DNA of 64,000 bases, taken from contig CAVYQE010000001.1 in assembly GCA_963770565.1 (NCBI GenBank), forward strand, positions 1,216,001 to 1,280,000. Direction: 5' to 3'. A program made the position numbers and the translations under genes. This DNA is from an uncultured Actinomycetota bacterium (lineage in GTDB: Bacteria > Actinomycetota > Actinomycetes > JAFAQI01). The notes under the pieces were generated by a model that made no database searches, was not told the origin of the DNA, and was given only the letters and a program-made list of their open reading frames with translations. Positions 18,476-39,268 of the stretch are shown here, piece by piece (within the stretch, counting starts at the first letter, position 1; each line of letters begins with the position of its first letter).

Positions 18476-18520
18476 CCAGGGCTTCCTACGGGCGCGACGG
18501 GCCGGCGTCAGAGCCACGCT
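18476..18520 (+). promoter_or_regulatory. Conserved island promoter element (copy 1) upstream of dyp-encapsulin
   Basis: CCAGGG-CTTCCT-ACGGGCGCGA, 17-bp spacer, CACGCT. Confidence 0.7.
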
Positions 18521-18637
18521 GATCTCGACCCGACGGATGGAGGTCTCCTGGCTCCACTCTTGCCCTCGCGTCACCAAACCACTAGGCGATGTCGGTCGCG
18601 ACGCGGAGTGCTTGGATGGGTCGGCGAGGTGATTGAC

Positions 18638-19660
18638 GTGGTGGTATCACAGGACGTGTTGCCGCAGCGCGCAGGCGCGGCAATCTTCTTGGTGGCGACG
18701 GTGGAGGTTGGCGCCGAAACCGATGTTCGCCAGTTGCTGGCGGACCTGTCGGGGCTGACGAGGTCGGTGGGGTTCCGTCTTCCGGACCGCGACTTGAGTT
18801 GTGTGGTTGGGATTGGCGCTGCGTTGTGGGATCGCTTGTTCGCAGGTCCGCGTCCGGCGTCGCTGCATCCGTTTCAGGAGATTGTCGGCACGCGCCACAT
18901 CGCGGTGTCGACGGCGGGCGACCTGCTCTTTCACCTGCGGGCGCACCAGATCGATGTGTGCTTTGAACTGGCGCGCCAGTTGACCCTCCGCTTGGCTGGT
19001 CGGGCGCAGGTGGTCGACGAGGTCCATGGGTTCACGTACTTCGATCAGCGTGACCTGATGGGCTTTGTCGACGGCACCGAGAACCCGACCGGGGCGGCGG
19101 CCGAGGCCGCCGCATTCATCAACGCGAGCGATCCGGACTTTGCCGGGGGCAGCTACGTCATCGTGCAGAAGTATCTGCACGACCTCGACGCGTGGGACGC
19201 ATTGCCGGTTGAGCAGCAGGAGCGCGTTGTGGGACGTACCAAACTCAGCGACATCGAGCTGTCCGATGAAACCAAGCCCTCGAACTCGCACGTCGCGCTG
19301 AACACGATCGTTGGTGACGATGGCGTCGAACGCCAGATCGTCCGGGAGAACATGGCATTCGGCCGGCCCGGGGCCGGCGAGTTCGGCACCTACTTTATCG
19401 GTTACGCCGCGGATCCTGAGGTGACCGAACTGATGCTTCACAACATGTTCATCGGCAAGCCAATGGGGAACTACGACCGGATCCTCGACTTCTCGACGGC
19501 TGTGACCGGCGCGCTATTCTTCGTGCCGAGCGTTGACTTTCTCGACGATCTGCCCGGCCTGCCGACAGCTGCGCTGCCAGCAGCGAAATCCGGGCACGAC
19601 GACGATGTGCAATCGCTTGACCGATCCTTGCGAATCGGCAGTTTGAAGGGGACCGACTGA
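18638..19660 (+). CDS. dyp: Dye-decolorizing peroxidase (DyP), encapsulin cargo
   Basis: GFVDGTEN (GXXDG motif), SHV proximal His, IVRENM, C-terminal targeting peptide RSLRIGSLKG. Confidence 0.95.
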   Translation: MVVSQDVLPQRAGAAIFLVATVEVGAETDVRQLLADLSGLTRSVGFRLPDRDLSCVVGIGAALWDRLFAGPRPASLHPFQEIVGTRHIAVSTAGDLLFHLRAHQIDVCFELARQLTLRLAGRAQVVDEVHGFTYFDQRDLMGFVDGTENPTGAAAEAAAFINASDPDFAGGSYVIVQKYLHDLDAWDALPVEQQERVVGRTKLSDIELSDETKPSNSHVALNTIVGDDGVERQIVRENMAFGRPGAGEFGTYFIGYAADPEVTELMLHNMFIGKPMGNYDRILDFSTAVTGALFFVPSVDFLDDLPGLPTAALPAAKSGHDDDVQSLDRSLRIGSLKGTD

Positions 19661-20466
19661 TGGACAACCTGAACCGTGAGCTCGCGCCGATCGCTGACGC
19701 AGCCTGGGCCGAGATCGAGGCAGAGGCCCATCGCACCTTCATCAGGCACGTCGCTGCGCGTCGAGTCGTCGACCTCGTTGGGCCGTCGGGTCCGACGTTG
19801 GCCGGCGTGGGCACGGGACATGCCCGAGACCTCGACCCACCAGCAGGCGGAGTGCTCGCACGATGCCGCGAGTTTGCGCCAGTAGTTGAGTTCCGGGTCC
19901 CGTTCACCATCGACCGGCGAGCGGTTGACGACGTGGAGCGTGGAGCCAAGGACTCCGACTGGCAACCGGTGAAGGACGCAGCCAAACAGATCGCGTACGC
20001 CGAGGATGGTGCGATCTTCGCCGGCTATGCCGCCGCCGGTATCGAGGGGATCAGTGCCAGCACCTCCAACCCGGCAGTGGCGCTCCCCTCCGACGTCCGC
20101 GAGTATCCGACCGCGGTGGCGCATGCGCTCAGTGGACTTCGGCTGGCCGGTGTCGGTGGTCCCTACAGCCTGTTGCTCCCTGCCGAGATCTATACCGAGA
20201 TCGCGGAGACCACCGATCACGGCTATCCGATCCGCGAGCACATCGCTCGCGTGATCGAGGGTGGCGACATCATCTGGGCGCCGGCTGCCGAGGAGGGTTT
20301 CCTGCTCTCGACCCGAGGCGGCGATTACGAGCTGCACCTCGGCCAGGACGTGTCGATCGGCTATCTCTCACACGACGCCGACCACATCACGTTGTACTTC
20401 CAGGAGTCACTGACCTTCATCGTCCAGACCAGCGAAGCGGGTGTCGTCCTCACCGGCGCCGGCTGA
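19660..20466 (+). CDS. Family 1 encapsulin shell protein (Linocin M18/CFP29)
   Basis: MDNLNRELAPI...AW.EIE.EA, DDVERGAKDSDW, STRGGDYEL.LGQDVSIGY. Its ATG overlaps the dyp stop codon. Confidence 0.96.
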   Translation: MDNLNRELAPIADAAWAEIEAEAHRTFIRHVAARRVVDLVGPSGPTLAGVGTGHARDLDPPAGGVLARCREFAPVVEFRVPFTIDRRAVDDVERGAKDSDWQPVKDAAKQIAYAEDGAIFAGYAAAGIEGISASTSNPAVALPSDVREYPTAVAHALSGLRLAGVGGPYSLLLPAEIYTEIAETTDHGYPIREHIARVIEGGDIIWAPAAEEGFLLSTRGGDYELHLGQDVSIGYLSHDADHITLYFQESLTFIVQTSEAGVVLTGAG

Positions 20467-20484
20467 CCGCCACCGTTCACTGCA

Positions 20485-21158
20485 TCAGGTCGGCAGTTCC
20501 CCGCCGGCCCGCTCCTGCACGATGAAGTCGGCGTACCAGTCGGGCCAGTCGGGGTCTGCGTGGCCGATCCGCACCTCGTGCTCACCGTGGGCCGCCGCCG
20601 CGCGGCGAAGGGCGCCCGCCAGGTCGGACGTGGACCCAAACTCGGTCTGCGCGGAGTCGATCCGCCCGGGCAGCCGCGTCGTGACCTCCTGCACCAGCCA
20701 GCCGTTGCCGTCGGGATCGTCGAACGACACGAACGAGCCGTAGCTCTTGTGATCGGCGGGGGGCCGCTGACCCGGCCGCTCGCGGCGGCCTGGAACCGCG
20801 CGCCGCGGGTGCCTTCGTGGAACACCTCGCTGGCCCGTACACCGCGGGCCGTGAGGTCGTCACGCGCGGCCTCGATGTCGGCCACGATCAGGTACAGGGC
20901 CTGGGCCGAACCTGGCGTTGCAGGCGTCAGGTTCTGGCCGAACTGGATGGAGCAGGACGAGCCGGGCGGCGTGAACTGGACCAGCCGGAAATCGTCACTG
21001 GCGACGTCGGCGTCGAGCCTCCAGTCGAGACGGCCGTAGAACTCCTTTGCGCGATCAATGTCCGAGACCGGGATGACGATCACTTCGAGCTTCATGTCGA
21101 CGTTCGTGACGCCGATCTTCCCGCTCGCGTCCTTGCTGAGAACATCCGTCGTGCTCAT
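20485..21158 (-). CDS. VOC/glyoxalase family protein with C-terminal extension (one frameshift near 20760)
   Basis: MKLEVIVIPVSDIDRAKEFY in one frame; SFDDPDGNGWLVQE...WPDWYA in another. The break sits in a G run. Confidence 0.85.
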
Positions 21159-21187
21159 GCCGCCTCCTCAAGTTGTCGAATGAGGTC

Positions 21188-21242
21188 AGACTCCCGCAAG
21201 GACGGCGGCGTCGAGCCAGGCAAACCCCCTGGCCTCCCCTGG
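21188..21242 (-). promoter_or_regulatory. Conserved island promoter element (copy 2, variant) upstream of the VOC gene
   Basis: Minus strand CCAGGG-N4-CCAGGG-GGTTTG-CCTGGCTCGA, 17 bp, GAGTCT. Confidence 0.6.
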
Positions 21243-22535: not shown

Positions 22536-23957
22536 TCAGGTCGTCGCGAGATGCCAGCGGTGCGGGGCGATCAGTCGAGTGAGCGACGGTTCGGGGCCCC
22601 AAGATCCTGGGCGGTAGGTCTCGACCGCGGGTGGGTTGTCGAGCAGAGGCGAGGAGATCTCCCATAGGCGCTCGACGCCGTCATCTCTGGTGAAGAGGGT
22701 CTGGTCGCCGAGCATCGCCTCAACGATGAGCCGCTCGTAGCCTTCGAGATCGTTGGCAGTGCAGAACGAGTCCTCGTACCGGAACTGCATGGTGGCAGCG
22801 CCCAGGATCATCTCCAGCCCTGGCTGCTTTGCCAAGAACCCGGTGCTGATCGACCCTGGGTCGGCGAAGTCGATGACAATCTCGTTCCCACGGTCGGTCG
22901 GCCCTTGCCGGTTCGAGGTGTGGAACATGCGAAGGGTCGGCCGGCGGAGACCGAGCGTGATCAGCTGCCGGCTGGCACCAAGTCGCTTTCCGCTGCGGAG
23001 AAAGAACGGCACCCCGGCCCACCGCCAGTTGTCGATCTCGACTCGCACCGCCGCCATCGTCTCGGTGGTGCTGTCGGGTGGCACGCCCAGCTCGTCGAGG
23101 TAGCCGTCGTACTGGCCGCGCACCACGTGGCGCACGTCGAGGGGCTTGACGGCGTCGAAGACCTTTGCTCGCTCATCGAGAAGGTGCTTGGCGTCCAGTG
23201 TTGTCGGGGGCTCCATGGCCACGAACCCCAGAACCTGGAACAGGTGGGTCACGATCATGTCGCGATAGGCGCCGGTGCCGTCGTAGAAGTCGGCCCGTCC
23301 TTCGATCGAGAGCGCCTCCGGGACGTCTATCTGCACGTAAGAGATGTGATCGCGGTTCCAGATCGGCTCGAACAGGCCGTTGGCGAACCGGAACGCCAGG
23401 ATGTTGTCCACCGCCTCCTTGCCGAGGAAGTGGTCGATCCGGAAGATCTGTAACTCGTCGAACGCCGTGTGCAGCTCCCGATCGAGATCCTGGGCGGAGC
23501 GAAGGTCAGTGCCGAACGGCTTCTCGACGATGATGCGGGCACCCTGCGCGAGGCCCGCCGCGACGAGCATGCCAACGGTCGGCTCGAATGCCGTCGGCGG
23601 GATCGCCAGGTGCAGCAGCCGGCGCGGAGCGCCGCCGACCTGGTCGGTGGCGCGCTGGACCGCGGCCTCCAGCGGCGCCGTGTCTCCGGGACTCGCGCGG
23701 CCGAAGGACAGCGTGCTCGCGAAGGCATCCCACGCGTCGCCGCTCGGCTTGCTGGCCCCGAACTCAGCCACCGCGTCTCGCGCGTGTTCGCGGAACTGCT
23801 CGTCGGTGCGGGCGCTTCGGGCCGTACCGACGATGCGAAATCTGGGCGGCAGAAGGCCGCGAATGGACAACTGGAACAGCCCCGGCAGCAGCTTGCGTTT
23901 CGCGAGGTCGCCCGTTGCACCGAACAGGACATACACGTGGTTGTCCGGGCCAGACAT
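22536..23957 (-). CDS. zwf: Glucose-6-phosphate 1-dehydrogenase (stand-alone, no opcA or pgl adjacent)
   Basis: FGATGDLAKRK, EKPFG, RIDHFLGKE, NWRWAGVPFFLRSGK. Confidence 0.95.
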   Translation of the reverse strand: MSGPDNHVYVLFGATGDLAKRKLLPGLFQLSIRGLLPPRFRIVGTARSARTDEQFREHARDAVAEFGASKPSGDAWDAFASTLSFGRASPGDTAPLEAAVQRATDQVGGAPRRLLHLAIPPTAFEPTVGMLVAAGLAQGARIIVEKPFGTDLRSAQDLDRELHTAFDELQIFRIDHFLGKEAVDNILAFRFANGLFEPIWNRDHISYVQIDVPEALSIEGRADFYDGTGAYRDMIVTHLFQVLGFVAMEPPTTLDAKHLLDERAKVFDAVKPLDVRHVVRGQYDGYLDELGVPPDSTTETMAAVRVEIDNWRWAGVPFFLRSGKRLGASRQLITLGLRRPTLRMFHTSNRQGPTDRGNEIVIDFADPGSISTGFLAKQPGLEMILGAATMQFRYEDSFCTANDLEGYERLIVEAMLGDQTLFTRDDGVERLWEISSPLLDNPPAVETYRPGSWGPEPSLTRLIAPHRWHLATT

Positions 23958-23996
23958 AGGCAGTCCCTCCATCCCGTGCCCTGGGCAGGCTTCGGG

Positions 23997-25256
23997 CTAG
24001 CTGAAGATGCCGCGCGGGAACGTCATCGAGACGAGCCAGTTCGGCAAGTCGACGGTCTCACTGATCTTGAGGTCGCCGACAACGCTACAGAGCGTGTACG
24101 CCTCGTGCATGCTCAGCTCGTGATCGGTGACGAGCCAATCGATCATCTCCCGAACGGCATTCTTGGCGTTCTCCATCAGATCGGGGCCGACGCCGCTGGT
24201 GATGTAGTAGCCCTCATCTCGCATGTCGGCGGGCATCGCAAGCTGGGTGGGGTCGGCGGCCGGAACGATGGCGCGAGGCGAGGTGATCACGGAGTCCTTG
24301 ATCACGTTGAATCGCAGCGTTGCGGCCATCAGCGTCTCGATCGCAGTGCCGGTGATCTCGCCGTCGCCTTGGGCCATGTGACCGTCGCCGGCCGAGAACT
24401 TGGCGCCTTCGACATAGACCGGCAGCTGGAGACGGGAGCCCTTGACGAGCTGCCGGACATCGGTGTTGCCACCCATGCCGCCGCTGACGTTCGGCGGGAA
24501 GGTTCGATACATGCCTTTTCGCAATGGCGCGTTGCCGAGGATGCCCATGAACGGCGTGATCGGAATCCGTGCTTCGCGTCCGGTGTCGGAGCCGACGAAG
24601 GTCGCGAAGCCGGAGTTCTGGCCGCGCCCGAAGGTGAACAGCTGAACGCACGCCGCCCCGCTGTTGAACGGCTGGTCAGCCGGAATCGCTTGTGGCACTG
24701 CGCCGGGGCTCGGGTCGCTCAGCTGGGCGGCTTCGGTGTACGGCGCAAAGGCAGCGAGCGCCTCGGGCCGTAGCGTGCCGAAGATGCCAAGGGCAGGACT
24801 GATTGTGGTGTAGCCGAAGTCGACGATCGGGCTCACGTCGAGGATCTCCACCTCGAGGATGTCGCCGGGCTCGGCGCCCTCGATCTCGACCGGGCCGGTG
24901 AGCGGGTGAATTCTGCCGAGGTCGATCGTCATCGTGCCATCGGCGGTCATGGTCCGGGCCTGCTCGCCGATATCGAGCGCGTCACGGCACAGCAGCTGGA
25001 TCTCCTCGCCGGGCCGCACCGTCACCGCGGCCTGCAAGTCGCGGTTCCACCGGTTGTGCAGCACAGTCCGGTAGCCGTCGAGCACGCGGTCGCCGGATGG
25101 CGCGGCGATCGCTTCAGGTGTGCCCGATCCCGAGACGTTGACGGCGCCGAGACCGCCGCCGTCCGCGAGCCCGGCAAAGGCTTGGATTGCGGCGGAGGTC
25201 AGGCCCGCCTGGACGTGAAGCGACTCGCTGGCGGTCCCGGAGTGGGCGAAGCACAT
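23997..25256 (-). CDS. Acetamidase/formamidase family protein
   Basis: HNRW, HPLTGPVEIEGAEPGD, GGNTD, GDGHMAQGDGEITGTAIE; GAGGAG RBS. Confidence 0.92.
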   Translation of the reverse strand: MCFAHSGTASESLHVQAGLTSAAIQAFAGLADGGGLGAVNVSGSGTPEAIAAPSGDRVLDGYRTVLHNRWNRDLQAAVTVRPGEEIQLLCRDALDIGEQARTMTADGTMTIDLGRIHPLTGPVEIEGAEPGDILEVEILDVSPIVDFGYTTISPALGIFGTLRPEALAAFAPYTEAAQLSDPSPGAVPQAIPADQPFNSGAACVQLFTFGRGQNSGFATFVGSDTGREARIPITPFMGILGNAPLRKGMYRTFPPNVSGGMGGNTDVRQLVKGSRLQLPVYVEGAKFSAGDGHMAQGDGEITGTAIETLMAATLRFNVIKDSVITSPRAIVPAADPTQLAMPADMRDEGYYITSGVGPDLMENAKNAVREMIDWLVTDHELSMHEAYTLCSVVGDLKISETVDLPNWLVSMTFPRGIFS

Positions 25257-25309: not shown

Positions 25310-25365
25310 AGGATGCCGCTGCGTGACCTGAGTCGCGCCCGGGTGAGACCCGGGCCGGTCACTGG
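25310..25365 (-). promoter_or_regulatory. Conserved island promoter element (copy 3) upstream of acetamidase-zwf
   Basis: Minus strand CCAGTG-N5-CCCGGG-TCTCAC-CCGGGCGCGA, 17 bp, CATCCT. Confidence 0.65.
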
Positions 25366-25376: not shown

Positions 25377-26129
25377 TCAGGGAATGAGGTGTTGCCCGCC
25401 GTCGATGTCGAACGTCGCACCGGTCACAGCAGTGTTGGTCATCAGATGGATCACGAGCGCGGCCACGTCGGCGGGTCCGACCACACGTCTGATCGGGAGG
25501 CTGGCCCGCAGCTCGTCGCGGCGACGTTCGATGTCATCGCCCAACAGGCGACTCGAGAGCGGCGTGTCAACGAAGCCGGCGGCGATGGCATTCGCCCGCA
25601 TCGGCGCGAGCTCGACCGCGATGTTTGCGACGATCGCCGGCACGGCCGCCGCCTCGATGGCCGCCGCGCTGAGCCCGATGCCCGGGCGTCGCGCGTAGGT
25701 TCCCGTGATCAGCGTGAGCGAACCGCCTGAGCGCACCCGCCCGGCGCACGCCTTCGCGATCCGCAGGGAACCGATCAGGTGCTCGTCGAGCGCGCGCCGG
25801 ACCTGGTCGAAATCGAGCTCGGTGATGGGGGTGTACGGCGGACCGCTGCCCGTGACGAACACGTGGTCGATCGTTGCTGGCAGGCCCGCAAAGAACCTGT
25901 CGAGCTGATCCGGGTGGTCGAGATCCAGCTCGCCGGTGCTCAGCGCCTCGACCTCCTTGCCGGCTTGTTCGAGCCGACCGGGGTCACGCCCGGTGAGGAT
26001 CAGGCTGGCACCGGCGTTCTTGGCTTGTCGGGCTGTCTCCAGCCCCATGCCCGAGCTGCCGCCGATGACAACTACCGTTTGCCCGGCCAGGCTTCCGGCT
26101 CGCTGGGTCTCCGTACCGGTGTCACTCAC
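25377..26129 (-). CDS. Short-chain dehydrogenase/reductase (atypical, lacks YxxxK)
   Basis: VVIGGSSGMG, RANAIAAGFVDT, VTGATFDIDGG. Confidence 0.88.
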   Translation of the reverse strand: MSDTGTETQRAGSLAGQTVVVIGGSSGMGLETARQAKNAGASLILTGRDPGRLEQAGKEVEALSTGELDLDHPDQLDRFFAGLPATIDHVFVTGSGPPYTPITELDFDQVRRALDEHLIGSLRIAKACAGRVRSGGSLTLITGTYARRPGIGLSAAAIEAAAVPAIVANIAVELAPMRANAIAAGFVDTPLSSRLLGDDIERRRDELRASLPIRRVVGPADVAALVIHLMTNTAVTGATFDIDGGQHLIP

Positions 26130-26181
26130 GCCGTCTCCTCTTTGCCGGCGGTTGACCCCACGACCGCGCTGCCCCCGCTGG

Positions 26182-27316: not shown

Positions 27317-27321
27317 TCATC

Positions 27322-29384: not shown

Positions 29385-29463
29385 ACCCTCTACCTATCCT
29401 GACCGAGGACGATTCGGCAAGATCACATTGCTGCGCCGCGCGTGGCCGCGTACGTTTACGCCT

Positions 29464-30153: not shown

Positions 30154-30158
30154 TCGGG

Positions 30159-30515: not shown

Positions 30516-30550
30516 CCGTAGAGGCTGGCATCTACGCGCGTGCGCGGCAA

Positions 30551-30725: not shown

Positions 30726-33569
30726 ATGACCATGACCATGACCGAGTCGGACCGAGCGACGCTTGACGGCAATGCGAGCAAGCCGCTGCGCGGCCGGACC
30801 GACGAGTGCGATGCCATCGATCGTCTAGTTGCGACGGTCCGAGCTGGACGTAGCCAGGTGCTGGTTCTTCGCGGTGAGGCCGGTATCGGCAAGACGGCCC
30901 TGTTGGACCACTTGGCGGCATCGGCGCGTGACCTGACGGTGGTGCGCGCGGCTGGTGTCGAGTCGGAGATGACGCTGGCGTTTGCCGCGCTCCATCAGCT
31001 GTGTGCGCCAATGCTCAGCTATCGCGGGAGCCTGCCCGCACCTCAACGCGAGGCGTTGGAGGTGGTATTCGGGCTCGCGCTGCCTACAACCGACCAGTTC
31101 CTGGTCGGCCTCGCCGTATTGAGCCTGCTGACCGAGGTCGCCGCCGAGGGCCCGCTGATCTGTGTGGTGGACGACGCCCAATGGCTGGACGACGCGTCCG
31201 CTCGGACGCTCGCCTTTGCCGCGCGCAGGCTGCGCGCCGAGCCGGTCGGGCTGGTGTTCGCGACGCGCGAGCCAGGCGCGGAGCTGCGCCATCTGCCGGA
31301 GCTGGCGGTGCGGGGTCTGCACAGCGAGGATGCCCACGCGCTGTTGAGTGGGACGGTCAGGTTCGGGCTCGATGAGCGGGTGCGGGCTCGAATCGTCGCC
31401 GAAACCAGGGGCAACCCGCTCGCCCTCCTCGAGTTGCCGCGCGGGATGACGGGTGCCCATCTGGCTGGCGGGTACGGCCTGCTCGACGTACAGCAACTGC
31501 CCGGCCGCATCGAAGAGAGCTATCGGGGACGGCTTAGTGAGCTGCCCGTCGAAACCCTGCGGCTGCTGCTCGTCGCAACCGCCGAGCCGGTCGGCGACCC
31601 CCTGTTGGTGTGGCGGGCCGCCGAGCGACTGGGCATCGATCTGGGGGCGGCGGCCCCGGCCGAGACCGCCGGCCTGCTCGCTATCGCCGATCGAGTGACC
31701 TTTGACCATCCGCTCGTCCGGTCTGCGGTGTATCAATCCGCGGCGCCCGCGGACCGCCGGGCCGCACACCTGGCGCTCGCGGAGGTCATGGATCCTGAGC
31801 ACGATCCCGACCATCGTGCCTGGCACCTCGCCGCTGCCGCCTTCGGGCCGGACGAGGACGTGGCCGAGGAGCTTGATCGTTGCGCCGACCGAGCGCAGGC
31901 CCGTGGCGGGCTCGCGGCCGCTGCCGCGTTCTTGTGCCGGTCGGTGGAGCTGACCGGCGACCCGGCCAAGCGGGTGAACCGGGCCCTTGCCGCAACGCAG
32001 GTCAGCCTCCAAGCTGGCGCTTTCGACCTCGCGGACAAGTTGCTCGCAACAGCCGAGGTGGGTCCGCTCGATGAGCTCCAGCACACCCGGATGGATCTGC
32101 TCCGTGCGGAAGCCGCTTCATCACAGAATCGCGGTAGTGACGCTCCCGGGCCGCTGCTGGCGGCCGCGGCGGCGCTCGAGCGAACCGATCCGACGATGGC
32201 GCGCGACGCTTATCTCGACGCATGGAGCGCTGCGCTGTTTGCCGGCGGCCTGGCGAGCGCGGGCGGCCTGGTGGAGGTTTCTCGCGCAGCTCAGGTCGCC
32301 GTACGCCCACGCAGACCGGTACGTTCCGCGGACCTGCTGCTCGGCGGGTTGTCGAGGCTCGTCACCGACGGGCGCACAGCAGCGAGCCCGGTGCTCGCCC
32401 GGGCGGCGGCCCGATTCGCCGGCGGCACTGCACAGCCCGACGAGGTGCTCAGGTGGGGCTGGCTCGCCACCACCGCCGCGCTGGCGGTTTGGGACTACGA
32501 CTCCGCCCTCGCCAACGCGACCCGGGCCGCAGAGCTTGCACGTGACGCGGGGGCGCTCAGCGTGCTCGCGGTAAGTGTCAACGCGCTCGCGCAATCGGCG
32601 GTCCTTGGCGGCGACTTCGGGATGGCCGCGACGCTGATTGCTGAAGCCGACGTCGTCGTCGAAGCAACCGGCACTCGGCTTGCGCCGTACGGCGCTGTTG
32701 CGCTTGCGGGCTTCCGGGGCCGGCAAGTGGACGCCGACCGGTTGATCGATGCCACCATCCGTGAGGCGACCGCTGGTGGGCAGGGCACCGCGGTCCAGCA
32801 CGCCCACTGGGCGCGCTCGGTCGTCCTCAACGGTCTCGGACAGTACGGACAGGCGCTGGTGGCGGCGCGTGCGGCGAGCGACGATACGCCCGAGCTGTCG
32901 GTCGCTTCGTGGGCACTGAGCGAGCTGGTGGAGGCGGCCATGCGAAGCGGGCAGCACGCGCTAGCCGATGACGCGGTCGCCCGAATAGGCGATCACGCCG
33001 GCGCCAGCAAGTCGGATTGGGCGAGTGGTGTGCGCTCGCGCGCTCGCGCCCTGGTGAGCGACGGGGGGTCGGCCGAAGGCCTCTACCTGGAAGCGATCGA
33101 CGCCTTCGGCCGAACCCAGCTTCGCCCGGAGCTGGCCCGTACGCACCTCCTCATCGGTGAGTGGCTGCGCCGTGAGGGGCGGCGGGTCGACGCACAGCAT
33201 CACCTCAGGACCGCCCACGGCATGTTCGCCTCCATCGGCATGGAGGCGTTCGCCGAGCGCACTCGCCGCGAGCTCAGTGCGACCGGCGAGAAGCTTCGCA
33301 AGCGCAACGTCGCCTCGACCGAGCTCACGCCTCAGGAGATGCAGATCGCGTTGCTGGCGCGTGACGGCCTGACCAACCCCGAGGTTGGGGAGCGGTTGTT
33401 CATCAGCGCGCGCACCGTCGAATGGCACCTGCGCAAGGTGTTCACCAAACTCTCGATTGCCTCGAGGCGCGAACTGCGCAACGCCCTCGCCGACCCTCAG
33501 TACGGGCTGGCACAGACCAGTGCCTCACACGGGCGCGAAGGACCTCTAGCGGTGCGAGCGTGTGGCTGA
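30726..33569 (+). CDS. Large ATP-binding LuxR (LAL/MalT-like STAND) transcriptional regulator
   Basis: Walker A GEAGIGKT, Walker B VVDDAQW, GNPLALLEL, C-terminal LTPQE...LFISARTVEWHLRKVFTKL. Confidence 0.93.
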   Translation: MTMTMTESDRATLDGNASKPLRGRTDECDAIDRLVATVRAGRSQVLVLRGEAGIGKTALLDHLAASARDLTVVRAAGVESEMTLAFAALHQLCAPMLSYRGSLPAPQREALEVVFGLALPTTDQFLVGLAVLSLLTEVAAEGPLICVVDDAQWLDDASARTLAFAARRLRAEPVGLVFATREPGAELRHLPELAVRGLHSEDAHALLSGTVRFGLDERVRARIVAETRGNPLALLELPRGMTGAHLAGGYGLLDVQQLPGRIEESYRGRLSELPVETLRLLLVATAEPVGDPLLVWRAAERLGIDLGAAAPAETAGLLAIADRVTFDHPLVRSAVYQSAAPADRRAAHLALAEVMDPEHDPDHRAWHLAAAAFGPDEDVAEELDRCADRAQARGGLAAAAAFLCRSVELTGDPAKRVNRALAATQVSLQAGAFDLADKLLATAEVGPLDELQHTRMDLLRAEAASSQNRGSDAPGPLLAAAAALERTDPTMARDAYLDAWSAALFAGGLASAGGLVEVSRAAQVAVRPRRPVRSADLLLGGLSRLVTDGRTAASPVLARAAARFAGGTAQPDEVLRWGWLATTAALAVWDYDSALANATRAAELARDAGALSVLAVSVNALAQSAVLGGDFGMAATLIAEADVVVEATGTRLAPYGAVALAGFRGRQVDADRLIDATIREATAGGQGTAVQHAHWARSVVLNGLGQYGQALVAARAASDDTPELSVASWALSELVEAAMRSGQHALADDAVARIGDHAGASKSDWASGVRSRARALVSDGGSAEGLYLEAIDAFGRTQLRPELARTHLLIGEWLRREGRRVDAQHHLRTAHGMFASIGMEAFAERTRRELSATGEKLRKRNVASTELTPQEMQIALLARDGLTNPEVGERLFISARTVEWHLRKVFTKLSIASRRELRNALADPQYGLAQTSASHGREGPLAVRACG
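33517..33561 (+). promoter_or_regulatory. Conserved island promoter element (copy 6) upstream of the poxB operon
   Basis: CCAGTG-CCTCAC-ACGGGCGCGA, 17 bp, GAGCGT; lies within the 3' tail of the LAL ORF. Confidence 0.7.
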
Positions 33570-33611: not shown

Positions 33612-35363
33612 ATGCCCCGACGCGTAGCCGATGATCTTCTCGACGTACTCGTACAAGCCGGCGTCCATCGGGTCTACGGGCTGGTCGGGGACAGCCTCAA
33701 CGCGTTCAGTGACGCGGTGCGCCGCAGCGGTGGGTCAGCCAACGGCGGCATCGACTGGGTGCACGTCCACAACGAGGAATCCGCCGCCTTCGCGGCGTCG
33801 GCGGAAGCGCAGCTCACCGGTCGGCTGGCGGTGTGCGGGGGGAGTTGCGGCCCTGGCAACACCCACCTGATCCAGGGCGTCATGGACGCGCATCGCTCCG
33901 GTGCCCCTGTCCTCGCGCTTGCCACACATATCCCCAGTCGGCAGATCGGCACCGGGTATTTCCAGGAGACCAAGCCGGAGGCGTTGTACGCGCAGACGAG
34001 TCACTACTGCGAGACGGTCGCCCACCCCGACCAGGTCGTCCGGGTGGCCCGCAGCGCGGTCCAGAACGCGGTCGGCAAGCAAGGTGCGGCTGTCCTCGTG
34101 CTGCCCGGCGACATCCTCGCCGAAAGATCGGATGGCAAGGTCAAGCCGGCGGCGACTGTGCTCGACCGACCGTTGCCCATTCCCGCCGATGGGGCGATCA
34201 CCGAGCTCGCGGACCGCATCAGGGCCGCGGACAAGATCACCATCTTCGGCGGCATCGGCTGCACCAACGCGCGGAAAGAGGTGTTCGAGCTGGCCGGCCT
34301 GCTCAACGCTCCGATCGGGCATACGTTGCGGGGCAAAGACGTCTTGCAGTACGACAACCCGTTCGATGTCGGCATGACCGGGCTGCTCGGGTACGGCAGC
34401 TGTTACCAAGCACTTCACGACGCGGATTTGGTGCTGTTCCTCGGCACCGACTTCCCGTACGACGACTTTCTGCCGGCCTCGAACAATGTCCAGATCGACA
34501 TCGACCCGTCCCGCCTCGGTCGACGAGCACCGATCGTGCAGGGTATTGCGGCCGATCTTCGCCTAACGTTGCAGGCGTTGTTGCCACTGCTCGAGCAACG
34601 GGTGGACCGTGCGTTCCTCGACGACATGCTCCGAGCCCATGAGAAGGCGATCACGCACAGCGTCGACACCTACAGCACCCACGTCAGCAAGCGGCAGCCG
34701 ATCCATCCGGAATACCTGTCCGCGGTCGTCGACGAGGTCGCGGCGAGCGACGCGATCTTCACTGTGGACACCGGGATGTGCTGCACCTGGACCGCCCGCT
34801 ACATGACGCCGAACGGGCATCGACGGCTGATTGGCTCGTTCGATCATGGCGCGATGGCCAACGCGCTACCGATGGCGATCGGCGCCCAGATCTCCCACCC
34901 GGACCGGCAGGTCGTCGCGCTCTGTGGCGACGGCGGGCTGGCCATGTTGCTCGGCGAGCTGCTGACCGCGAAGACCCACAACCTGCCGGTCAAGGTCGTC
35001 GTGTTCAACAACTCCAGCCTCGACATGGTCCGGCTGGAAATGCTTGTTGACGGCGACCCGCCGTTTGAGACCGATCACGACGACGTGGACTACGCCGCGA
35101 TCGCCGCAGCGGCAGGTTTCTTCACCCGTCGAGTCACCGAGCCCGGCGACCTCCATGACGCTGCCAAGGCGGTGTTCAGCCACGATGGGCCGGCGCTCCT
35201 CGACGTCGTCACCACCCCCGATGCGCTCGAGGTGCCGACCCACATCACTCTCCAGGAGACCAAGGGCTTCGCATTGGCTCTCGGCAAGATCGTTCTCGGC
35301 GGCGGGATCGGCGAAGTCGCAAACGTGGCCCGGCTCAACGTGCGCAACATCCCACGACCATGA
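33612..35363 (+). CDS. poxB: Pyruvate dehydrogenase (quinone)/pyruvate oxidase, TPP enzyme
   Basis: GLVGDSLN, GSCGPGNTHL, NPFDVGMTGLLG, GDGGLAMLLGEL...NNSSL. Confidence 0.9.
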   Translation: MPRRVADDLLDVLVQAGVHRVYGLVGDSLNAFSDAVRRSGGSANGGIDWVHVHNEESAAFAASAEAQLTGRLAVCGGSCGPGNTHLIQGVMDAHRSGAPVLALATHIPSRQIGTGYFQETKPEALYAQTSHYCETVAHPDQVVRVARSAVQNAVGKQGAAVLVLPGDILAERSDGKVKPAATVLDRPLPIPADGAITELADRIRAADKITIFGGIGCTNARKEVFELAGLLNAPIGHTLRGKDVLQYDNPFDVGMTGLLGYGSCYQALHDADLVLFLGTDFPYDDFLPASNNVQIDIDPSRLGRRAPIVQGIAADLRLTLQALLPLLEQRVDRAFLDDMLRAHEKAITHSVDTYSTHVSKRQPIHPEYLSAVVDEVAASDAIFTVDTGMCCTWTARYMTPNGHRRLIGSFDHGAMANALPMAIGAQISHPDRQVVALCGDGGLAMLLGELLTAKTHNLPVKVVVFNNSSLDMVRLEMLVDGDPPFETDHDDVDYAAIAAAAGFFTRRVTEPGDLHDAAKAVFSHDGPALLDVVTTPDALEVPTHITLQETKGFALALGKIVLGGGIGEVANVARLNVRNIPRP

Positions 35364-35770
35364 GCGACGACGCGATGGATCCGACTCGGGCCGCGATCGA
35401 GGAGCACTGGCGGGCATCGGAAAGCGGGGACTCCGAGACCGAGCACGCCATCTACGCCGAGGACGCGATTCTCGACTACCCCCAATCAGGTGAGCGGTTC
35501 CGGGGCCGCTCGGCGATCGCGGCGCAACGGGGCGGCCACCCGGCTGATCGGCATTTCACGGTGCTGAGGATCCTTGGCGGTGATGACCTGTGGGTCAGCG
35601 AGTGCATCATCACGTATGACGGCACACCGACGTACTCGGTCAGCGTCATGGAGTTCGTTGTCGCGAAGGTGGCGCACGAGACTCAGTACTTCGCCGACCC
35701 GTTCGGGGCACCGCAGTGGCGGAGCGCGCTTTCCGAACCGATGCCCGGCCGACAGATCCAGCATGCCTAG
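35360..35770 (+). CDS. SnoaL/NTF2-like protein
   Basis: IYAEDAILDYPQSGERFRG, ETQYFADPF; ATGA overlap with poxB. Confidence 0.85.
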   Translation: MSDDAMDPTRAAIEEHWRASESGDSETEHAIYAEDAILDYPQSGERFRGRSAIAAQRGGHPADRHFTVLRILGGDDLWVSECIITYDGTPTYSVSVMEFVVAKVAHETQYFADPFGAPQWRSALSEPMPGRQIQHA

Positions 35771-36191
35771 TTGCCGTGGGCGGTTGCTGCAGCGCGTCCT
35801 GCCCGAGGACGTCGACTGGGAGCCGTTCCCGTCGTTTCCGCCGGAGGCGCGTCTCGCCGCTGTGGTGGGTGATCCATCAGAGGCCGCTCCGTACGTGGTC
35901 CGGGTCAAGGTCCCGTCCGGCGTGAAGCTGATGCCCCACCGGCACCACGAGGACCGCGTCTACACGGTCATGTCCGGCGTCTTCTACATCGGAGTGGGCG
36001 AACACTTCGATGATGAGAGGCTGGAGGCGTTTCCACCCGGTGCCGTCATCGTGCTGCCCGGCGGTACGCCGCACTTTCACTGGGCGAAGTCGGGTGAGTA
36101 CGTCACCCAGGTGACCGCGACCGGGCCGATCAGCCTGGACTATGTCGACCCGGCCCACGACCCGCGGCAGCATCACGCCGTTTCCGTGTGA
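35763..36191 (+). CDS. Cupin domain protein
   Basis: PHRHHEDR.YTV.SG and PGGTPHFHW cupin motifs. Confidence 0.85.
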   Translation: MPSCRGRLLQRVLPEDVDWEPFPSFPPEARLAAVVGDPSEAAPYVVRVKVPSGVKLMPHRHHEDRVYTVMSGVFYIGVGEHFDDERLEAFPPGAVIVLPGGTPHFHWAKSGEYVTQVTATGPISLDYVDPAHDPRQHHAVSV

Positions 36192-36267: not shown

Positions 36268-36324
36268 CCAGGGTGCGGCCAGTGGTATCCACGGGCGCGA
36301 CCGCACGGCCCGGTCTGCGACCGT
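36268..36324 (+). promoter_or_regulatory. Conserved island promoter element (copy 7), probably giving a leaderless transcript
   Basis: CCAGGG-TGCGG-CCAGTG-GTATCC-ACGGGCGCGA, 18 bp, GACCGT, 7 bp, ATG. Confidence 0.75.
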
Positions 36325-36331
36325 CGCAGGT

Positions 36332-36931
36332 ATGAGACCTGACATCAGACCAGGCGGCACGTTCCCCGACTACGCTCTGCCGGATCACACCGGCACGGTT
36401 TGCAGTCTCAGCGAGCTGCAGGGCCGCGATCCGCTGATCCTGACCTTGGCGCGCGGCAACTACTGCCCCAAGGAGCATCAGCAGCACCTCGAGCTGGCGG
36501 TCAACTACCCGAAGATTGCGGTCGCCTACACCCAGGTCGCCACGATCGCTACGGACGACCACCACACCTTGCAGGAGTTCCGCGCGTCGGTCGGCGCCCA
36601 GTGGACCTTTCTGTCCGATCCGGAGCGGACGGTTCAGCAGGATCTCGACATCCAGGAGTACACCGACCCCGAGCACAACCCGATGATTCCGCACACACTC
36701 GTGCTCAAGCCGGGACTGGTCGTTCACAGCGTCTACAACGGCTACTGGTTCTGGGGGCGGCCGTCGTTCTACGAGTTGTGGCAGGACCTGAGGGCCGCCA
36801 GCGCCGAGATCCGCCCGGACTGGGACCTGAGTGTCCCCGGGCTCCGCGATGAATGGGACGCGCACGAGTACGCGCACTTTCACGGCTGGGACCGGAAGTC
36901 CGCCGCGTCGATGCCGTCTTCCTATGTATGA
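36332..36931 (+). CDS. AhpC/TSA/redoxin-like thioredoxin-fold protein (single Cys, YCPKE)
   Basis: PGGTFPDYALPDHTG...LSEL.G, RGNYCPKE, FLSDPER. Confidence 0.8.
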   Translation: MRPDIRPGGTFPDYALPDHTGTVCSLSELQGRDPLILTLARGNYCPKEHQQHLELAVNYPKIAVAYTQVATIATDDHHTLQEFRASVGAQWTFLSDPERTVQQDLDIQEYTDPEHNPMIPHTLVLKPGLVVHSVYNGYWFWGRPSFYELWQDLRAASAEIRPDWDLSVPGLRDEWDAHEYAHFHGWDRKSAASMPSSYV

Positions 36932-37877
36932 GACGCCCGTTTGCACGATGCTCGGAATTGAGCATCCGATCGTGCAGGCACCCATGGCCGATGTTCCCCA
37001 GCTCGCGGCGGCGGTCTCGAATGCCGGCGCGCTCGGCATGGTGACGCTGACCTGGTCTGCTGATGTCGGTGCGGTCGTTCGCGAGACGAGGGCACTGACG
37101 GATCGGCCGTTCGGCGGCAACCTCGTGCTTACCGAAGATCACCACCGCCGTCTTGACCAGGCCCTAGCGGCGGGCTTGCGGATCGTCTCGTTCATGTGGG
37201 GGGATCCCAGCGGGTACATCAAGACGGTGCACGACGCGGGCGGGATCGTCATGCACACCGTCGGCAGTGCCGAGGAGGCTCGGCGGGCGGTCGGGTCTGG
37301 TGTGGACGTGATCGTCGCGCAGGGCTGGGAGGCCGGCGGGCACGTATGGGGCCGGATCGCCACACTTCCGCTGGTGCCTGCGGTTGTGGACGCGGTGACG
37401 CCGGTGCCGGTGATCGCGGCTGGCGGGATCGGTGACGCTCGTGGTGTCGCCGCAGTGCTTGCCCTGGGCGCCCAGGCGGCGTGGCTCGGAACGCGATTCC
37501 TGCTCGCCGAGGAGATGCCGATCCACGACGACTACCGGCGTCGGCTGATAGCAGCGGACGAGACCGACCCACAGTGGTACCCAGACCTGTATGCGGTCGG
37601 GTGGCCCGACTCTCCCCATCGCGCGCTCCGCAACTCAACTGCCGAGACGTGGGACGCCGCGGGTCGCCCGCCACTCGGGCAGCGGCCAGGGGAGGGAGAC
37701 GTGATCGCGAAGTTCGCCTCCGGCGAGGCAATCGTTCGTTACGAGCCCGCGCCACCGATGACAGGGACGACCGGTGAGATCGAGGCGCTCTCGATGTGGG
37801 CCGGCCAGGACGTCGCGCTGGCGAGGAAGTCACAGCCGGCAGCGGACATCGTGGCCGAGCTCACCTCGCGCCTCTGA
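36924..37877 (+). CDS. Nitronate monooxygenase family flavoprotein
   Basis: PIVQAPM, LAAAVSNAGALG, QGWEAGGH, AAGGIGDARG, GTRF. Confidence 0.9.
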   Translation: MYETPVCTMLGIEHPIVQAPMADVPQLAAAVSNAGALGMVTLTWSADVGAVVRETRALTDRPFGGNLVLTEDHHRRLDQALAAGLRIVSFMWGDPSGYIKTVHDAGGIVMHTVGSAEEARRAVGSGVDVIVAQGWEAGGHVWGRIATLPLVPAVVDAVTPVPVIAAGGIGDARGVAAVLALGAQAAWLGTRFLLAEEMPIHDDYRRRLIAADETDPQWYPDLYAVGWPDSPHRALRNSTAETWDAAGRPPLGQRPGEGDVIAKFASGEAIVRYEPAPPMTGTTGEIEALSMWAGQDVALARKSQPAADIVAELTSRL

Positions 37878-37916
37878 CCGGGACGGGCGCATATAAGAGG
37901 AGAAGTCGCTCGCGAG

Positions 37917-38363
37917 CTAGGTGAGCGGTGCCCAGCTGTCGGGCCACCAGTCTCCCTGTGGGTCGGTGGTTTGCCCGACCTCGATGATGTAACCGTCGGG
38001 ATCCCGGATGTAGCACCGGATCTCGTACTGGTGCTGCTTCGGCGGTGTCAGGAACTCAGCCCCCCGGGCGCTCCATTCGGCGTACACGGCGTGGATGTCC
38101 GTGACCCGGATGTTGAGGAAGCTGCTGACCCGGTCGGGGTCGCGTGGCGTCTCGAGGGTGACGGTGGGTTTGTCGTCGGTTGGGCCGCCGCCGGCATTGA
38201 TGACGATGAAGCTGTTGGCGAGCGCGACGTTGGTGGGCGCCGGGCCGAAGACCACTCGGCCGCCGAGGACCTCGGTGTAGAAGCGCTGGGAGCGCTCGAC
38301 GTCGTCGGAAACGATGAAGTACGCCACCACCATCTGGTTGGCGGCCTCCGCGAATTCAGTCAC
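37917..38363 (-). CDS. VOC/glyoxalase family protein
   Basis: VSDDVERSQRFYTEVLGG, RVTDI, YIRDPDGYIIEVGQ. Confidence 0.88.
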   Translation of the reverse strand: MTEFAEAANQMVVAYFIVSDDVERSQRFYTEVLGGRVVFGPAPTNVALANSFIVINAGGGPTDDKPTVTLETPRDPDRVSSFLNIRVTDIHAVYAEWSARGAEFLTPPKQHQYEIRCYIRDPDGYIIEVGQTTDPQGDWWPDSWAPLT

Positions 38364-38396
38364 TGCACCTCCAAGTGTCGCGGCTCATTTCCATCG

Positions 38397-39113
38397 TCAG
38401 TGGCCGGCGATCTGGCCACCATCGATGTGCAGGATTTCGCCGGTGATGAACGACGACGACTCAAGGAACAGGATGCCGTCAACGATGTCGCGGACCTGAC
38501 CCACGTGCCCAACCGGCGGGAGCTGCGTACCCAGCCCGGCGTAGCTCTCGGCCGGATGCACCGGCGTCTGGATGATGCCTGGCGAGACCGCGTTGACCCG
38601 GATGCCGCGGGAGGCGTACTCGATGGCCAGGGACTTGGTGGCCGACGCAAGGCCGCCCTTGGTGAGCGCAGTCAGGACAGCGGGCGCGCTCGAGATGGCG
38701 TAGTCGGCCAGAGTGGTCGTGATGTTGACGACGTGGCCGCCACCGCGTTCCAGCATTTCGGCGATAGCGCGCTGCGTCAGCGTGAAGAAACCGGTGAGGT
38801 TGACGCCGACCACGGCGGCGTAGTCCTCTGCGCTGTAGTCGGTGAACGGTTTGGAGATGTAGATCCCGGCATTGTTCACGAGTGTGTCGATGCGGCCGAA
38901 GCGCTCGAGTGCCCCGCTGATGACCCGGTCGGTGGTGGCAGCATCAGAGATGTCACCGGCAATGGTCAGCAACGTCGGGTCGGCGTCGCCCGTGATGGTC
39001 CGGGACGTAGCCACGACCGCCCACCCCCGCCGGCGATACTCCGCAACCACGCCGGCGCCAATGCCTTGAGAACCCCCCGTGACGATCGCGACCTTGCGAC
39101 GGTGTTCGCTCAT
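38397..39113 (-). CDS. Short-chain dehydrogenase/reductase
   Basis: VTGGSQGIG, LVNNAGI, RVNAVSPG, ITGEILHIDGG. Confidence 0.9.
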   Translation of the reverse strand: MSEHRRKVAIVTGGSQGIGAGVVAEYRRRGWAVVATSRTITGDADPTLLTIAGDISDAATTDRVISGALERFGRIDTLVNNAGIYISKPFTDYSAEDYAAVVGVNLTGFFTLTQRAIAEMLERGGGHVVNITTTLADYAISSAPAVLTALTKGGLASATKSLAIEYASRGIRVNAVSPGIIQTPVHPAESYAGLGTQLPPVGHVGQVRDIVDGILFLESSSFITGEILHIDGGQIAGH

Positions 39114-39123
39114 GACCTTCTTC

Positions 39124-39268
39124 ATTGTGGGGGTCAAAGGTGCCGCGTGGAGCCAGGAGGTGTCCCTGGTCGATCCCTGGTCGCCTCTGGCCTCTGACCT
39201 CTGAGGGCAGGCCAGGGGAGCGCCAGGGAGTTTCACGGGCGCGACCGTTGGGTCGCTGCGAGGATTGT
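39124..39268. promoter_or_regulatory. Back-to-back pair of island promoter elements (copies 8 and 9)
   Basis: Minus strand: CCAGGG-N5-CCAGGG-ACACCT-CCTGGCTCCA (39148-39180) plus CACAAT. Plus strand: CCAGGG-N5-CCAGGG-AGTTTC-ACGGGCGCGA (39212-39244) plus GATTGT. Confidence 0.72.

What the first reader, a model, noticed from the sequence alone, without database searches (positions are those of the whole stretch)
18476..39268. Candidate undescribed ~21-kb regulon: nine copies of one activator/promoter element around a MalT-like LAL regulator
Seen: the element [CCAG(G/T)G-N5]-CCAG(G/T)G-N6-ACGGGCGCGA, then 17-18 bp, then nAnnnT, has its core at +18476 (dyp-encapsulin), -21211 (VOC), -25333 (acetamidase-zwf), -26738 (unknown protein-SDR), +26780 (VOC-membrane protein), +33517 (poxB-SnoaL-cupin), +36279 (redoxin-nitronate monooxygenase), -39148 (SDR-VOC) and +39223 (BI-1/YccA). 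Six copies have the exact ACGGGCGCGA decamer and three are variants. Every copy points into the adjacent gene, two pairs are back-to-back, the hexamers mostly repeat at 11 bp, and one copy puts the expected start site on the ATG. Established: MalT-type STAND activators oligomerise on phased asymmetric direct repeats next to a poor -35. Inference: the LAL protein at 30726-33569 activates a redox/electrophile-stress programme with an encapsulated peroxidase, NADPH supply, pyruvate overflow, glyoxalases and a membrane-protective protein. I know no description of this motif or regulon, but could not search.
Basis: partly seen in the sequence, partly recalled or inferred. Interest (0 to 1): 0.85.

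Follow-up and report, generated by a model that had tools for sequence, protein, structure and literature searches.

The report
Conserved LAL-activator box, nine promoters
Nine promoter-like sites in one gene island of a GC-rich bacterium share a hidden palindromic DNA box that recurs next to the same large ATP-binding regulator in many other bacteria, so the box is likely that regulator's docking site and would switch on a set of probable detoxification enzymes.

Summary
The element is real: all 6 exact genome-wide matches, and the 9 best profile matches, lie in this island. The constant core is an imperfect palindrome, CCMGKG-N5-CMCKGG (N4 in some relatives). It is followed by YGCGA, then 17-18 bp, then (G/C)AnnnT. 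The upstream repeat is optional.

The box tracks one clade of AAA_16-LuxR (LAL) regulators with the helix RT[VI]EWH: 25 of 36 such loci carry sites, against 0 of 16 loci with other helices. A search that started from the motif found this LAL in 23 of 120 mostly short contigs, and the NarL-type pair in 1.

Recurrent targets are VOC proteins, SDRs, epoxide and alpha/beta hydrolases, a flavin reductase, redoxin, PoxB and BI-1. DyP-encapsulin, zwf and NMO were motif-linked only here.

The layout matches the published Actinoplanes MalT regulon, which has a different DNA word and different genes. Ten literature searches found no description of this word. Binding, start sites and inducer are untested. 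This scan noted similar LAL boxes earlier on other DNA. Verdict: new variant of a known kind.

The parts
30726..33569 (+). LAL/STAND regulator, 947 aa: AAA_16 NTPase, TPR-like helical sensor, LuxR HTH with recognition helix SARTVEWH; likely reader of the box
   Evidence: Pfam AAA_16 and GerE; Walker A GEAGIGKT, Walker B CVVDDAQW, GNPLAL; AlphaFold pLDDT 89; Foldseek top hits STAND-TPR 6MFV, Avs3, MalT 8BOB; only close copy in the genome
18476..18520 (+). Site 1: dyad 18476-18492, tail CGCGA, -10 CACGCT 18515-18520; predicted start 18527
18608..20466 (+). DyP peroxidase and family 1 encapsulin; site absent upstream of the 91%-identical dyp of same-genus G003
21188..21242 (-). Site 2 (variant): core 21232-21211, upstream half-site at 10 bp, -10 GAGTCT; predicted start 21181
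20485..21158 (-). VOC-fold gene 1; appears frameshifted near 20765 (real or assembly indel)
25310..25365 (-). Site 3 (variant, dyad CCCGGG-N5-CCCGGG): core 25354-25333, half-site at 11 bp, -10 CATCCT; predicted start 25303
22536..25256 (-). FmdA/AmdA-family amidase (23997-25256) and zwf (22536-23957)
   Evidence: fmdA also has a site in G021 and G004
26715..26770 (-). Site 4: core 26759-26738, half-site at 11 bp, -10 CACTCT; predicted start 26708; back-to-back with site 5
25377..26655 (-). 157-aa helical protein of no Pfam family (26182-26655; 48%-identical homologue in G004) and SDR (25377-26129)
26780..26825 (+). Site 5: core 26780-26801, -10 AACTGT; predicted start 26832
26873..27840 (+). 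VOC-fold gene 2 and DUF1440-like membrane protein
27879..30515 (.). PAS-GAF-HisKA_3 kinase (27879-29384 -), NarL-type regulator (29464-30153 +), lone receiver (30159-30515 -); no site upstream; rival reader
   Evidence: same trio beside the LAL in 1 of 120 motif-first loci (L134)
33517..33561 (+). Site 6, inside the 3' end of the LAL frame: core 33517-33538, -10 GAGCGT; predicted start 33568
   Evidence: relatives carry a site just after the LAL stop (e.g. L023, L028, L031, L035, L036)
33612..36191 (+). PoxB-like pyruvate dehydrogenase, SnoaL-like protein, cupin
   Evidence: NF005114 870.8 bits, just under its 893 cut-off
36268..36324 (+). Site 7: half-site 36268, core 36279-36300, -10 GACCGT; predicted start 36331, leaderless ATG 36332
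36332..37877 (+). AhpC/TSA-like redoxin and nitronate-monooxygenase-family flavoprotein
39124..39180 (-). Site 8 (weakest variant): core 39169-39148, half-site at 11 bp, -10 CACAAT; predicted start 39117
37917..39113 (-). SDR (38397-39113) and VOC-fold gene 3 (37917-38363)
39212..39268 (+). Site 9: half-site 39212, core 39223-39244, -10 GATTGT; predicted start 39275; back-to-back with site 8
39301..39957 (+). BI-1/YccA-family membrane protein
   Evidence: site upstream of homologues in L091 and G004

Best explanation
The nine sites share a palindromic box ending at the -35 position of a predicted housekeeping-sigma promoter, and the adjacent LAL/STAND protein likely binds it and would switch on the downstream, probably detoxifying, enzymes when it senses an unknown small molecule. 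Shown by sequence: a dyad CCMGKG-N5-CMCKGG, a one-sided tail YGCGA, 17-18 bp, then (G/C)AnnnT with G mostly at -14; an optional extra half-site 11-12 bp upstream; confinement to the island; recurrence beside RT[VI]EWH-helix LAL genes across several actinobacterial families and two MAGs labelled Chloroflexia and Acidobacteriaceae. Inferred from geometry: the dyad is centred at -43/-44 and ends at -35/-36, a class II position, and the missing T-12 would keep the promoter weak without the activator. Inferred from MalT (partly recalled): a ligand binds the TPR-like sensor, ATP loading drives oligomerisation, two LuxR HTHs dock on the dyad, a third adds cooperativity at the upstream half-site, and sigma region 4 is recruited at the YGCGA side. 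Inferred from gene content: the inducer is most likely a reactive electrophile or xenobiotic (epoxide, carbonyl, quinone).
For: Confinement: 6 of 6 exact hits in this genome, and 16 of 17 exact hits in five other genomes (43 Mb) within 13 kb of such a LAL. De novo top dyad near LAL relatives is CCAGGG-N5-CCCTGG, in 12 of 29 loci (26 strand counts against about 0.7 expected). A model trained only on window sites plus the metagenome -10 finds sites in 23 of 33 RT[VI]EWH clusters and 0 of 9 other LAL loci; reversed-sequence control 0 of 33 and 1 of 9. With 10 more LAL loci the totals are 25 of 36 and 0 of 16, and six of the negatives are 49-54% identical overall. The positive LALs fall in one clade (SH-like 99, FastTree). 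Motif-first metagenome scan: LAL in 23 of 120 loci, NarL pair in 1 of 120. In unseeded columns, AnnnT lies at offset 19 or 20 in 60 of 66 non-redundant sites, with at most 3 at any other offset. Leaderless starts whose N-termini match homologues sit at +0/+1 in L114 (VOC), the window redoxin and L083 (PoxB). Homologues of target genes away from a LAL have no site in 8 of 8 loci, including a 91%-identical dyp. Precedent: Actinoplanes MalT, with deletion and overexpression data and a palindrome whose 3' end is 34.4 nt from mapped starts (PMC7567727).
Against: No binding, TSS or expression data for any member (searches found none). 11 of 36 RT[VI]EWH loci have no site under the independent model. 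The helix grouping was chosen, and related genomes are not independent. 13 of the 20 motif-first contigs of 5 kb or more show no LAL (one, L112, does), including a full 20-kb locus (L066). In complete genome G131 a strong site lies 0.94 Mb from the nearest LAL, whose helix is the variant SRHTVEWH. The strict 16-base pattern alone is not enriched class-wide: 12 hits in 11 of 400 genomes against 21 for the reversed control. NarL-type regulators 41-52% identical to the local one exist in all 5 genomes tested. The window LAL departs from 21 of 320 conserved columns (median 12), including R327D and R363H. The inducer class rests only on Pfam labels of targets.
Confidence: 0.8

Rival explanations
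1. Same regulator and box, but the programme is a general stress or stationary-phase response triggered by a metabolic or physiological signal, not an electrophile.
For: Targets include PoxB, BI-1, YflT, a ferritin/Dps-like protein, DJ-1/PfpI, carbonic anhydrase, a STAS protein and a SigJ-like ECF sigma. The Actinoplanes regulon responded to carbon source and growth phase, not to a toxin (PMC7567727).
Against: The commonest first genes are enzymes acting on small organic molecules: VOC 17, SDR 13, epoxide hydrolase 12, flavin disulfide reductase 7, one alpha/beta-hydrolase family 5, redoxin 4, of 132 non-redundant genes. The LAL is patchy: 9 of 60 relatives have any hit at E<=1e-40.
Confidence: 0.3
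2. The neighbouring NarL-type response regulator (29464-30153), or another LuxR-HTH protein, reads the box; the LAL is only a co-travelling gene.
For: NarL-family proteins bind dyads (PMC6099782 passage). The kinase-regulator-receiver trio sits beside the LAL here and in L134. Similar regulators occur in all 5 genomes tested. Some sites lie far from any LAL.
Against: The NarL-type regulator matched in 1 of 120 motif-first metagenome loci and 0 of 29 LAL-first loci. Site presence follows the LAL recognition helix, 25 of 36 against 0 of 16.
Confidence: 0.07
3. The element is the promoter of an alternative sigma factor with a long -35 element and needs no activator.
For: Fixed 17-18 bp spacing and non-standard letters at -35 (GYGCGA) and -12 (G in 73%). 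A SigJ-like sigma is a target in 4 LAL-first sites and in R. opacus pR1CP1.
Against: A-11 and T-7 are the hallmark of the principal sigma HrdB (PMC6344877 passage). A 17-bp dyad plus an upstream half-site is too long and symmetric for sigma region 4 alone (established knowledge). No sigma gene was found among the island's ORFs scanned.
Confidence: 0.05
4. The LAL binds the box but represses, or the window's copy is a decaying, inactive island.
For: The dyad overlaps -35. LALs SCO0877 and SCO7173 down-regulate PHO genes (PMC3282765 passages). VOC1 looks frameshifted and the LAL has R327D and R363H.
Against: The promoters lack T-12 and a TTGACA-like -35: 0 consensus promoters in 27000-41000, so there is little basal activity to repress. 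All nine sites keep exact spacing. The same geometry activates in Actinoplanes.
Confidence: 0.08

Closest known systems
[quoted passage not shown] SE50/110 (Droste et al. 2020, PMC7567727; parts 1-4 of 6 of the text read)
   Same: A large LuxR-family ATPase inside a local gene block; a 6-5-6 palindrome ending at about -35 (34.4 +/- 1.0 nt there; -35/-36 predicted here); shuffled gene order among relatives; often a second paralogous regulator.
   Different: The DNA word is TCATCC-N5-GGATGA there and CCMGKG-N4/5-CMCKGG here, with a conserved YGCGA tail and an optional upstream half-site. Targets there are amino-acid, membrane and hypothetical genes. That system was reported in Micromonosporaceae; this one spans several families. 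The two proteins were not compared directly (sequence not fetched).
MalT of Escherichia coli (STAND activator; PDB 8BOB; binding facts from passages in PMC7567727 and PMC6099782)
   Same: NTPase + helical sensor + LuxR HTH; Foldseek E 5e-7 to 8BOB; a box next to -35.
   Different: MalT uses asymmetric GGA(T/G)GA boxes in direct repeat. No sequence hit to MalT in PDB, and the MalT NCBIfam model was not among the hits at E<=1e-8. No maltose genes.
PAS-LuxR activators PimM/PteF/RazD (PMC6448028 and PMC13683440, passages)
   Same: A LuxR HTH dyad with a near-identical half-site: CTVGGG-AWWT-CCCBAG against CCAGGG-N4/5-CCCTGG.
   Different: Small PAS proteins that control polyketide clusters; 4-bp spacer; no NTPase.
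Other actinobacterial LAL regulators: SCO0877/SCO7173, TpdR, RazA/B (PMC3282765, PMC6099782, PMC13683440, passages)
   Same: Same domain plan and size.
   Different: No defined operator in the passages read, except a proposed 15-nt direct repeat for TpdR that does not match this box.

Membership tests
LAL (large ATP-binding LuxR) regulators | Large size with an N-terminal NTP-binding domain carrying Walker A/B | tested here: met
   947 aa, AAA_16 E 3.5e-18, GEAGIGKT and CVVDD
LAL (large ATP-binding LuxR) regulators | C-terminal LuxR/GerE HTH | tested here: met
   PF00196 E 2.4e-12; hits to VraR, ComA, NarL HTHs
STAND NTPases | NBD with GxP motif, winged helix and helical-repeat sensor | tested here: met
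   G229-N230-P231 and F326/H328/P329/L330 invariant in 70 sequences; top fold hits 6MFV, 8DGC, 8BOB, Apaf-1, with low whole-chain TM scores of 0.17-0.26
STAND NTPases | Ligand- and ATP-dependent oligomerisation | not testable with these tools
   needs biochemistry
E. coli-type MalT regulon | Asymmetric GGA(T/G)GA boxes in direct repeat | tested here: not met
   core is the dyad CCMGKG-N5-CMCKGG; upstream repeat absent in 36 of 72 sites
E. coli-type MalT regulon | Maltose transport and catabolism targets | tested here: not met
   none among the 37 window ORFs or 51 target representatives scanned
Actinoplanes MalT/MRLGR regulon | 6-5-6 palindrome ending near -35 | tested here: met
   predicted -35/-36, anchored on the -10 and on three leaderless starts, not on mapped TSSs
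Actinoplanes MalT/MRLGR regulon | Word TCATCC-N5-GGATGA | tested here: not met
   different word
Actinoplanes MalT/MRLGR regulon | Orthology of the regulator to ACSP50_3915 | not tested
   sequence not fetched
Actinoplanes MalT/MRLGR regulon | Activation shown by deletion and overexpression | not testable with these tools
   needs genetics
PAS-LuxR (PimM) regulons | PAS domain fused to a LuxR HTH | tested here: not met
   the only PAS protein among the ORFs scanned is a histidine kinase
Principal-sigma (HrdB/SigA) promoters | A-11 and T-7, often G-14/-13 | tested here: met
   60 of 66 sites, G-14 in 85%; criteria from PMC6344877; T-12 absent

The most novel reading that the evidence does not exclude
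The RT[VI]EWH clade (about 8000 database proteins at E<=1e-100, a capped count that includes other helices) is a widespread, mobile chemical-surveillance system. NLR-like STAND sensors with different TPR pockets all read one DNA word, often as tandem paralogues or cascades, and each lineage recruits new promoters into the set, as the dyp-encapsulin operon seems to have been here. The box would be the first operator code for AAA_16-type LAL regulators, and would let regulons and inducers be assigned from sequence across Actinomycetota.
Probability: 0.3. Interest if true: 0.7.

Novelty: new variant of a known kind. Interest (0 to 1): 0.5.

Why it matters
LAL regulators are abundant in actinobacteria and poorly characterised, and the papers read gave almost no defined operators. 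This gives a precise, testable operator, a promoter geometry and a recognition-helix signature for a very large subfamily, with cultured carriers (Streptomyces, Actinomadura, Streptosporangium, Actinomycetospora, Rhodococcus opacus 1CP). It also places many uncharacterised VOC, SDR, epoxide hydrolase, redoxin and DUF1440 genes in one predicted regulon. The promoters could become tight inducible tools once the inducer is found. The principle itself, a local regulon under a MalT-like protein with a palindrome at -35, is already published.

Tried and rejected
Direct-repeat-only model: rejected.

Strict 16-base pattern as a class-wide marker: not above its reversed control. It needs the -10 or the third half-site.

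Link between spacer length (N4 or N5) and regulator sequence: none seen. N4 sites concentrate in one 14-row clade that also has N5 members, and both spacers occur in G021 and G004.

Autoregulation: no site upstream of the window LAL.

Second STAND-LuxR gene at 44475-47387 as reader: only a 69-aa match in 1 of 120 motif-first loci.

Conserved sensor cysteines: C93 and C146 are 95% conserved but lie in the NTPase domain; none is well conserved in the sensor region.

Mapped TSSs: motif words were searched in the supplements of PMC6448022, PMC8022548, PMC4895711 and PMC8780764. There were no hits in three and five hits in PMC8022548, of which the four shown lack the geometry. Files without sequence columns, or cut when stored, cannot show a site.

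Expression: no RNA holder listed; three same-study RNA runs gave only short partial matches. Uninformative.

157-aa orphan: low-confidence helical model (pLDDT 52) and Atlas hits at 0.80 only.

An IQ-TREE run did not finish, so the tree is FastTree only. No complex model was obtained.

Literature searches found no description of this word; most subscription journals are not in the library. The PimM footprinting paper and the mycobacterial G-14/-13 promoter paper were not held, so they are cited only through papers that quote them.

Full report
OBSERVATION. The nine copies exist as described. The strict pattern CCAGKG-N6-ACGGGCGCGA has 6 matches in the 4.43-Mb genome, all between window 18476 and 39244, and allowing one mismatch adds none. 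Independence of hexamer and decamer predicts 0.016. A profile ranks the nine sites first to ninth, and each held-out site stays within the top 3-13 of 8.86 million positions. A model trained only on other genomes (seeded from the window profile) ranks eight of them 1-8 and the ninth about tenth. All nine have A..T 17-18 bp downstream and point into the next gene.

ANATOMY. In fact the first part of the decamer, with the base before it (CACGGG), is the inverted copy of the hexamer. De novo counting of spaced word pairs in intergenic DNA of 29 LAL-relative loci, with no seed, gave CCAGGG-N5-CCCTGG as the top pair (12 of 29 loci). The refined model is CCMGKG-N5-CMCKGG-YGCGA. A 4-bp spacer variant occurs in 16 of 78 raw hits near LAL relatives. 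The tail YGCGA is one-sided: the matching upstream positions read RGR, not TCGCR. It appears on both sides only where one dyad serves two opposite promoters (L034). The extra upstream half-site is optional: 5 of 9 at 11 bp here; among 72 sites in relatives it is absent in 36, at 12 bp in 23, at 13 bp in 7, at 11 bp in 5 and at 10 bp in 1.

PROMOTER. In 60 of the 66 with enough flank, AnnnT starts at offset 19 or 20; no other offset exceeds 3. G is 85% at -14 and 73% at -12, and T-12 was seen in 0 of 60. A-11 and T-7 with G at -14/-13 is the HrdB-type pattern (PMC6344877, passages). This places the dyad centre at -43/-44 and its 3' end at -35/-36, the class II position of LuxR-type activators (recalled). 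Three leaderless starts whose N-termini match homologues lie at +0/+1: L114 VOC, the window redoxin and L083 PoxB. Overall ATG enrichment is modest: 13 in four positions against 14 in the next fourteen, among 168 sites. No mapped TSS was found.

The 947-aa protein has AAA_16 and GerE domains, intact Walker and GxP motifs and a confident model (pLDDT 89) whose best fold matches are STAND proteins, including MalT 8BOB. It is the only close copy in the genome. Four tests point to it.
(1) LAL-first. A model built from window sites and the metagenome -10 finds sites in 23 of 33 clusters whose LAL has the helix RT[VI]EWH and in 0 of 9 others; reversed controls gave 0 and 1. Ten further loci bring this to 25 of 36 against 0 of 16, with six negatives 49-54% identical overall. 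The grouping was chosen, and related genomes are not independent.
(2) Motif-first. The LAL is present in 23 of 120 loci (40 of them 633 bp or shorter) and the kinase/NarL pair in 1.
(3) Confinement. 16 of 17 exact hits in five other genomes lie within 13 kb of such a LAL; the pattern was partly derived from those loci.
(4) Controls. Homologues of target genes away from a LAL lack the site in 8 of 8 loci, including the 91%-identical dyp of same-genus G003, whose upstream DNA differs.

RESULTS AGAINST. 13 of 20 motif-first contigs of 5 kb or more show no LAL. G131 has a strong site 0.94 Mb from its nearest LAL. NarL-like proteins occur in all five genomes tested. The strict pattern is not enriched over its control in 400 genomes (12 against 21). 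Of those 12 hits, 3 have a LAL within 10 kb and 7 pass the full model; the 6 genomes holding those 7 all encode a TVEWH-helix LAL somewhere. Remote targets therefore exist, although in this genome the set is local.

THE REGULON. First genes after 237 sites (199 called, 132 non-redundant) are led by VOC proteins (17), SDRs (13), epoxide hydrolases (12), a flavin disulfide reductase of the Lpd/MerA superfamily below all family cut-offs (7), alpha/beta hydrolases (5 and 2), redoxin (4), a SigJ-like sigma (4) and PoxB (3). Rarer ones include second LALs, MOSC, SnoaL, FmdA, BI-1, YflT, DJ-1/PfpI and a ferritin-like protein. The family labels come from one representative per cluster (51 of 60 proteins or substitutes sent). 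DyP, encapsulin, zwf and NMO matched none of the 181 other loci then held, so they look like recent local recruits. The LAL is patchy among relatives (9 of 60 with a hit) and also lies on records of the plasmid collection, as expected of a mobile island. An electrophile or xenobiotic signal fits best, but a general-stress signal remains open.

COMPARISON. There a MalT-like protein activates a 51-gene region through TCATCC-N5-GGATGA ending 34.4 nt before mapped starts, shown by deletion and overexpression. The architecture here is the same; the word, the flanks and the genes differ. The half-site resembles the PimM consensus CTVGGG-AWWT-CCCBAG (PMC13683440 and PMC6448028, passages). TpdR, MilO, AniF and SAV111 sites or descriptions do not match (passages). 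E. coli MalT membership fails on box type and targets, although the protein likely works like MalT. Ten searches found no description of this word; closed journals and unseen supplements could hold one. Notes e1-721748 and e1-5302990 describe 21-bp boxes flanking LAL genes in other genomes. These may be the N4 form of this box (6+4+11 bp), but their sequences were not shown to me.

VERDICT. Observation confirmed; interpretation partly supported. LAL as reader and activator: about 0.8. Electrophile or xenobiotic inducer, given that: about 0.55. New variant of a known kind; interest 0.5.

Noticed in passing
window 33497-33569: The LAL runs about 20 residues past the usual end, so site 6 lies inside the coding region; in relatives this site follows the stop codon. 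Possible loss of a stop.
   Followed up: partly
window 20485-21158 (-): VOC gene 1 appears frameshifted near 20765. Several LAL genes in MAG loci (L004, L021, L033, L037, L051) are also split, which may be assembly indels.
   Followed up: partly
window 27879-30515: PAS-GAF-HisKA_3 kinase, NarL-type regulator and lone receiver sit directly upstream of the LAL; the same trio lies beside a LAL in L134. It could control LAL expression.
   Followed up: partly
window 21312-22316 (-): 334-aa protein with a signal-peptide-like N-terminus, no Pfam or NCBIfam hit and no site; lies between zwf and site 2.
   Followed up: no
window 44475-47387 (+): A second large ATPase-LuxR protein (970 aa) of another type, not linked to the box.
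   Followed up: partly
window 12315-17951 and 39968-44490: The flanks also hold oxidoreductases, an aquaporin, an alpha/beta hydrolase, an aldo-keto reductase, DUF1330, AHSA1 and TetR genes without the box; the island may be wider than the regulon.
   Followed up: no
L039:16583, L042:16821, L046:20328, L047:14640, L038:6966: In Nonomuraea the box, with a GGCTC-like tail, precedes a second, divergent LAL (helix SPRTVSSH where seen), suggesting a two-tier cascade.
   Followed up: partly
L009:6311, L034:8937, L028:4573, L036:5839, L182:24208: The box precedes a SigJ/SigX4-like ECF sigma factor gene in several genera, including R. opacus 1CP plasmid pR1CP1.
   Followed up: partly
L022, L023, L024, L030, L040, L049, L003: A 4-bp-spacer form of the dyad with the upstream half-site at 12 bp keeps the distal-to-proximal distance at 22 bp, as in the 5-bp/11-bp form.
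   Followed up: partly
L055:10003-12167: A lone strong site in genome G131 starts right after a gene for a UvrD/HelD-like ATPase (HelR resemblance recalled) and precedes a thioredoxin-like gene.
   Followed up: no
L187, L188 (G004 contig C7): In a same-genus genome, seven sites lie on a contig with no LAL in the 28 kb fetched; they precede fmdA, VOC and SDR genes and, further upstream, the homologue of the 157-aa orphan.
   Followed up: partly
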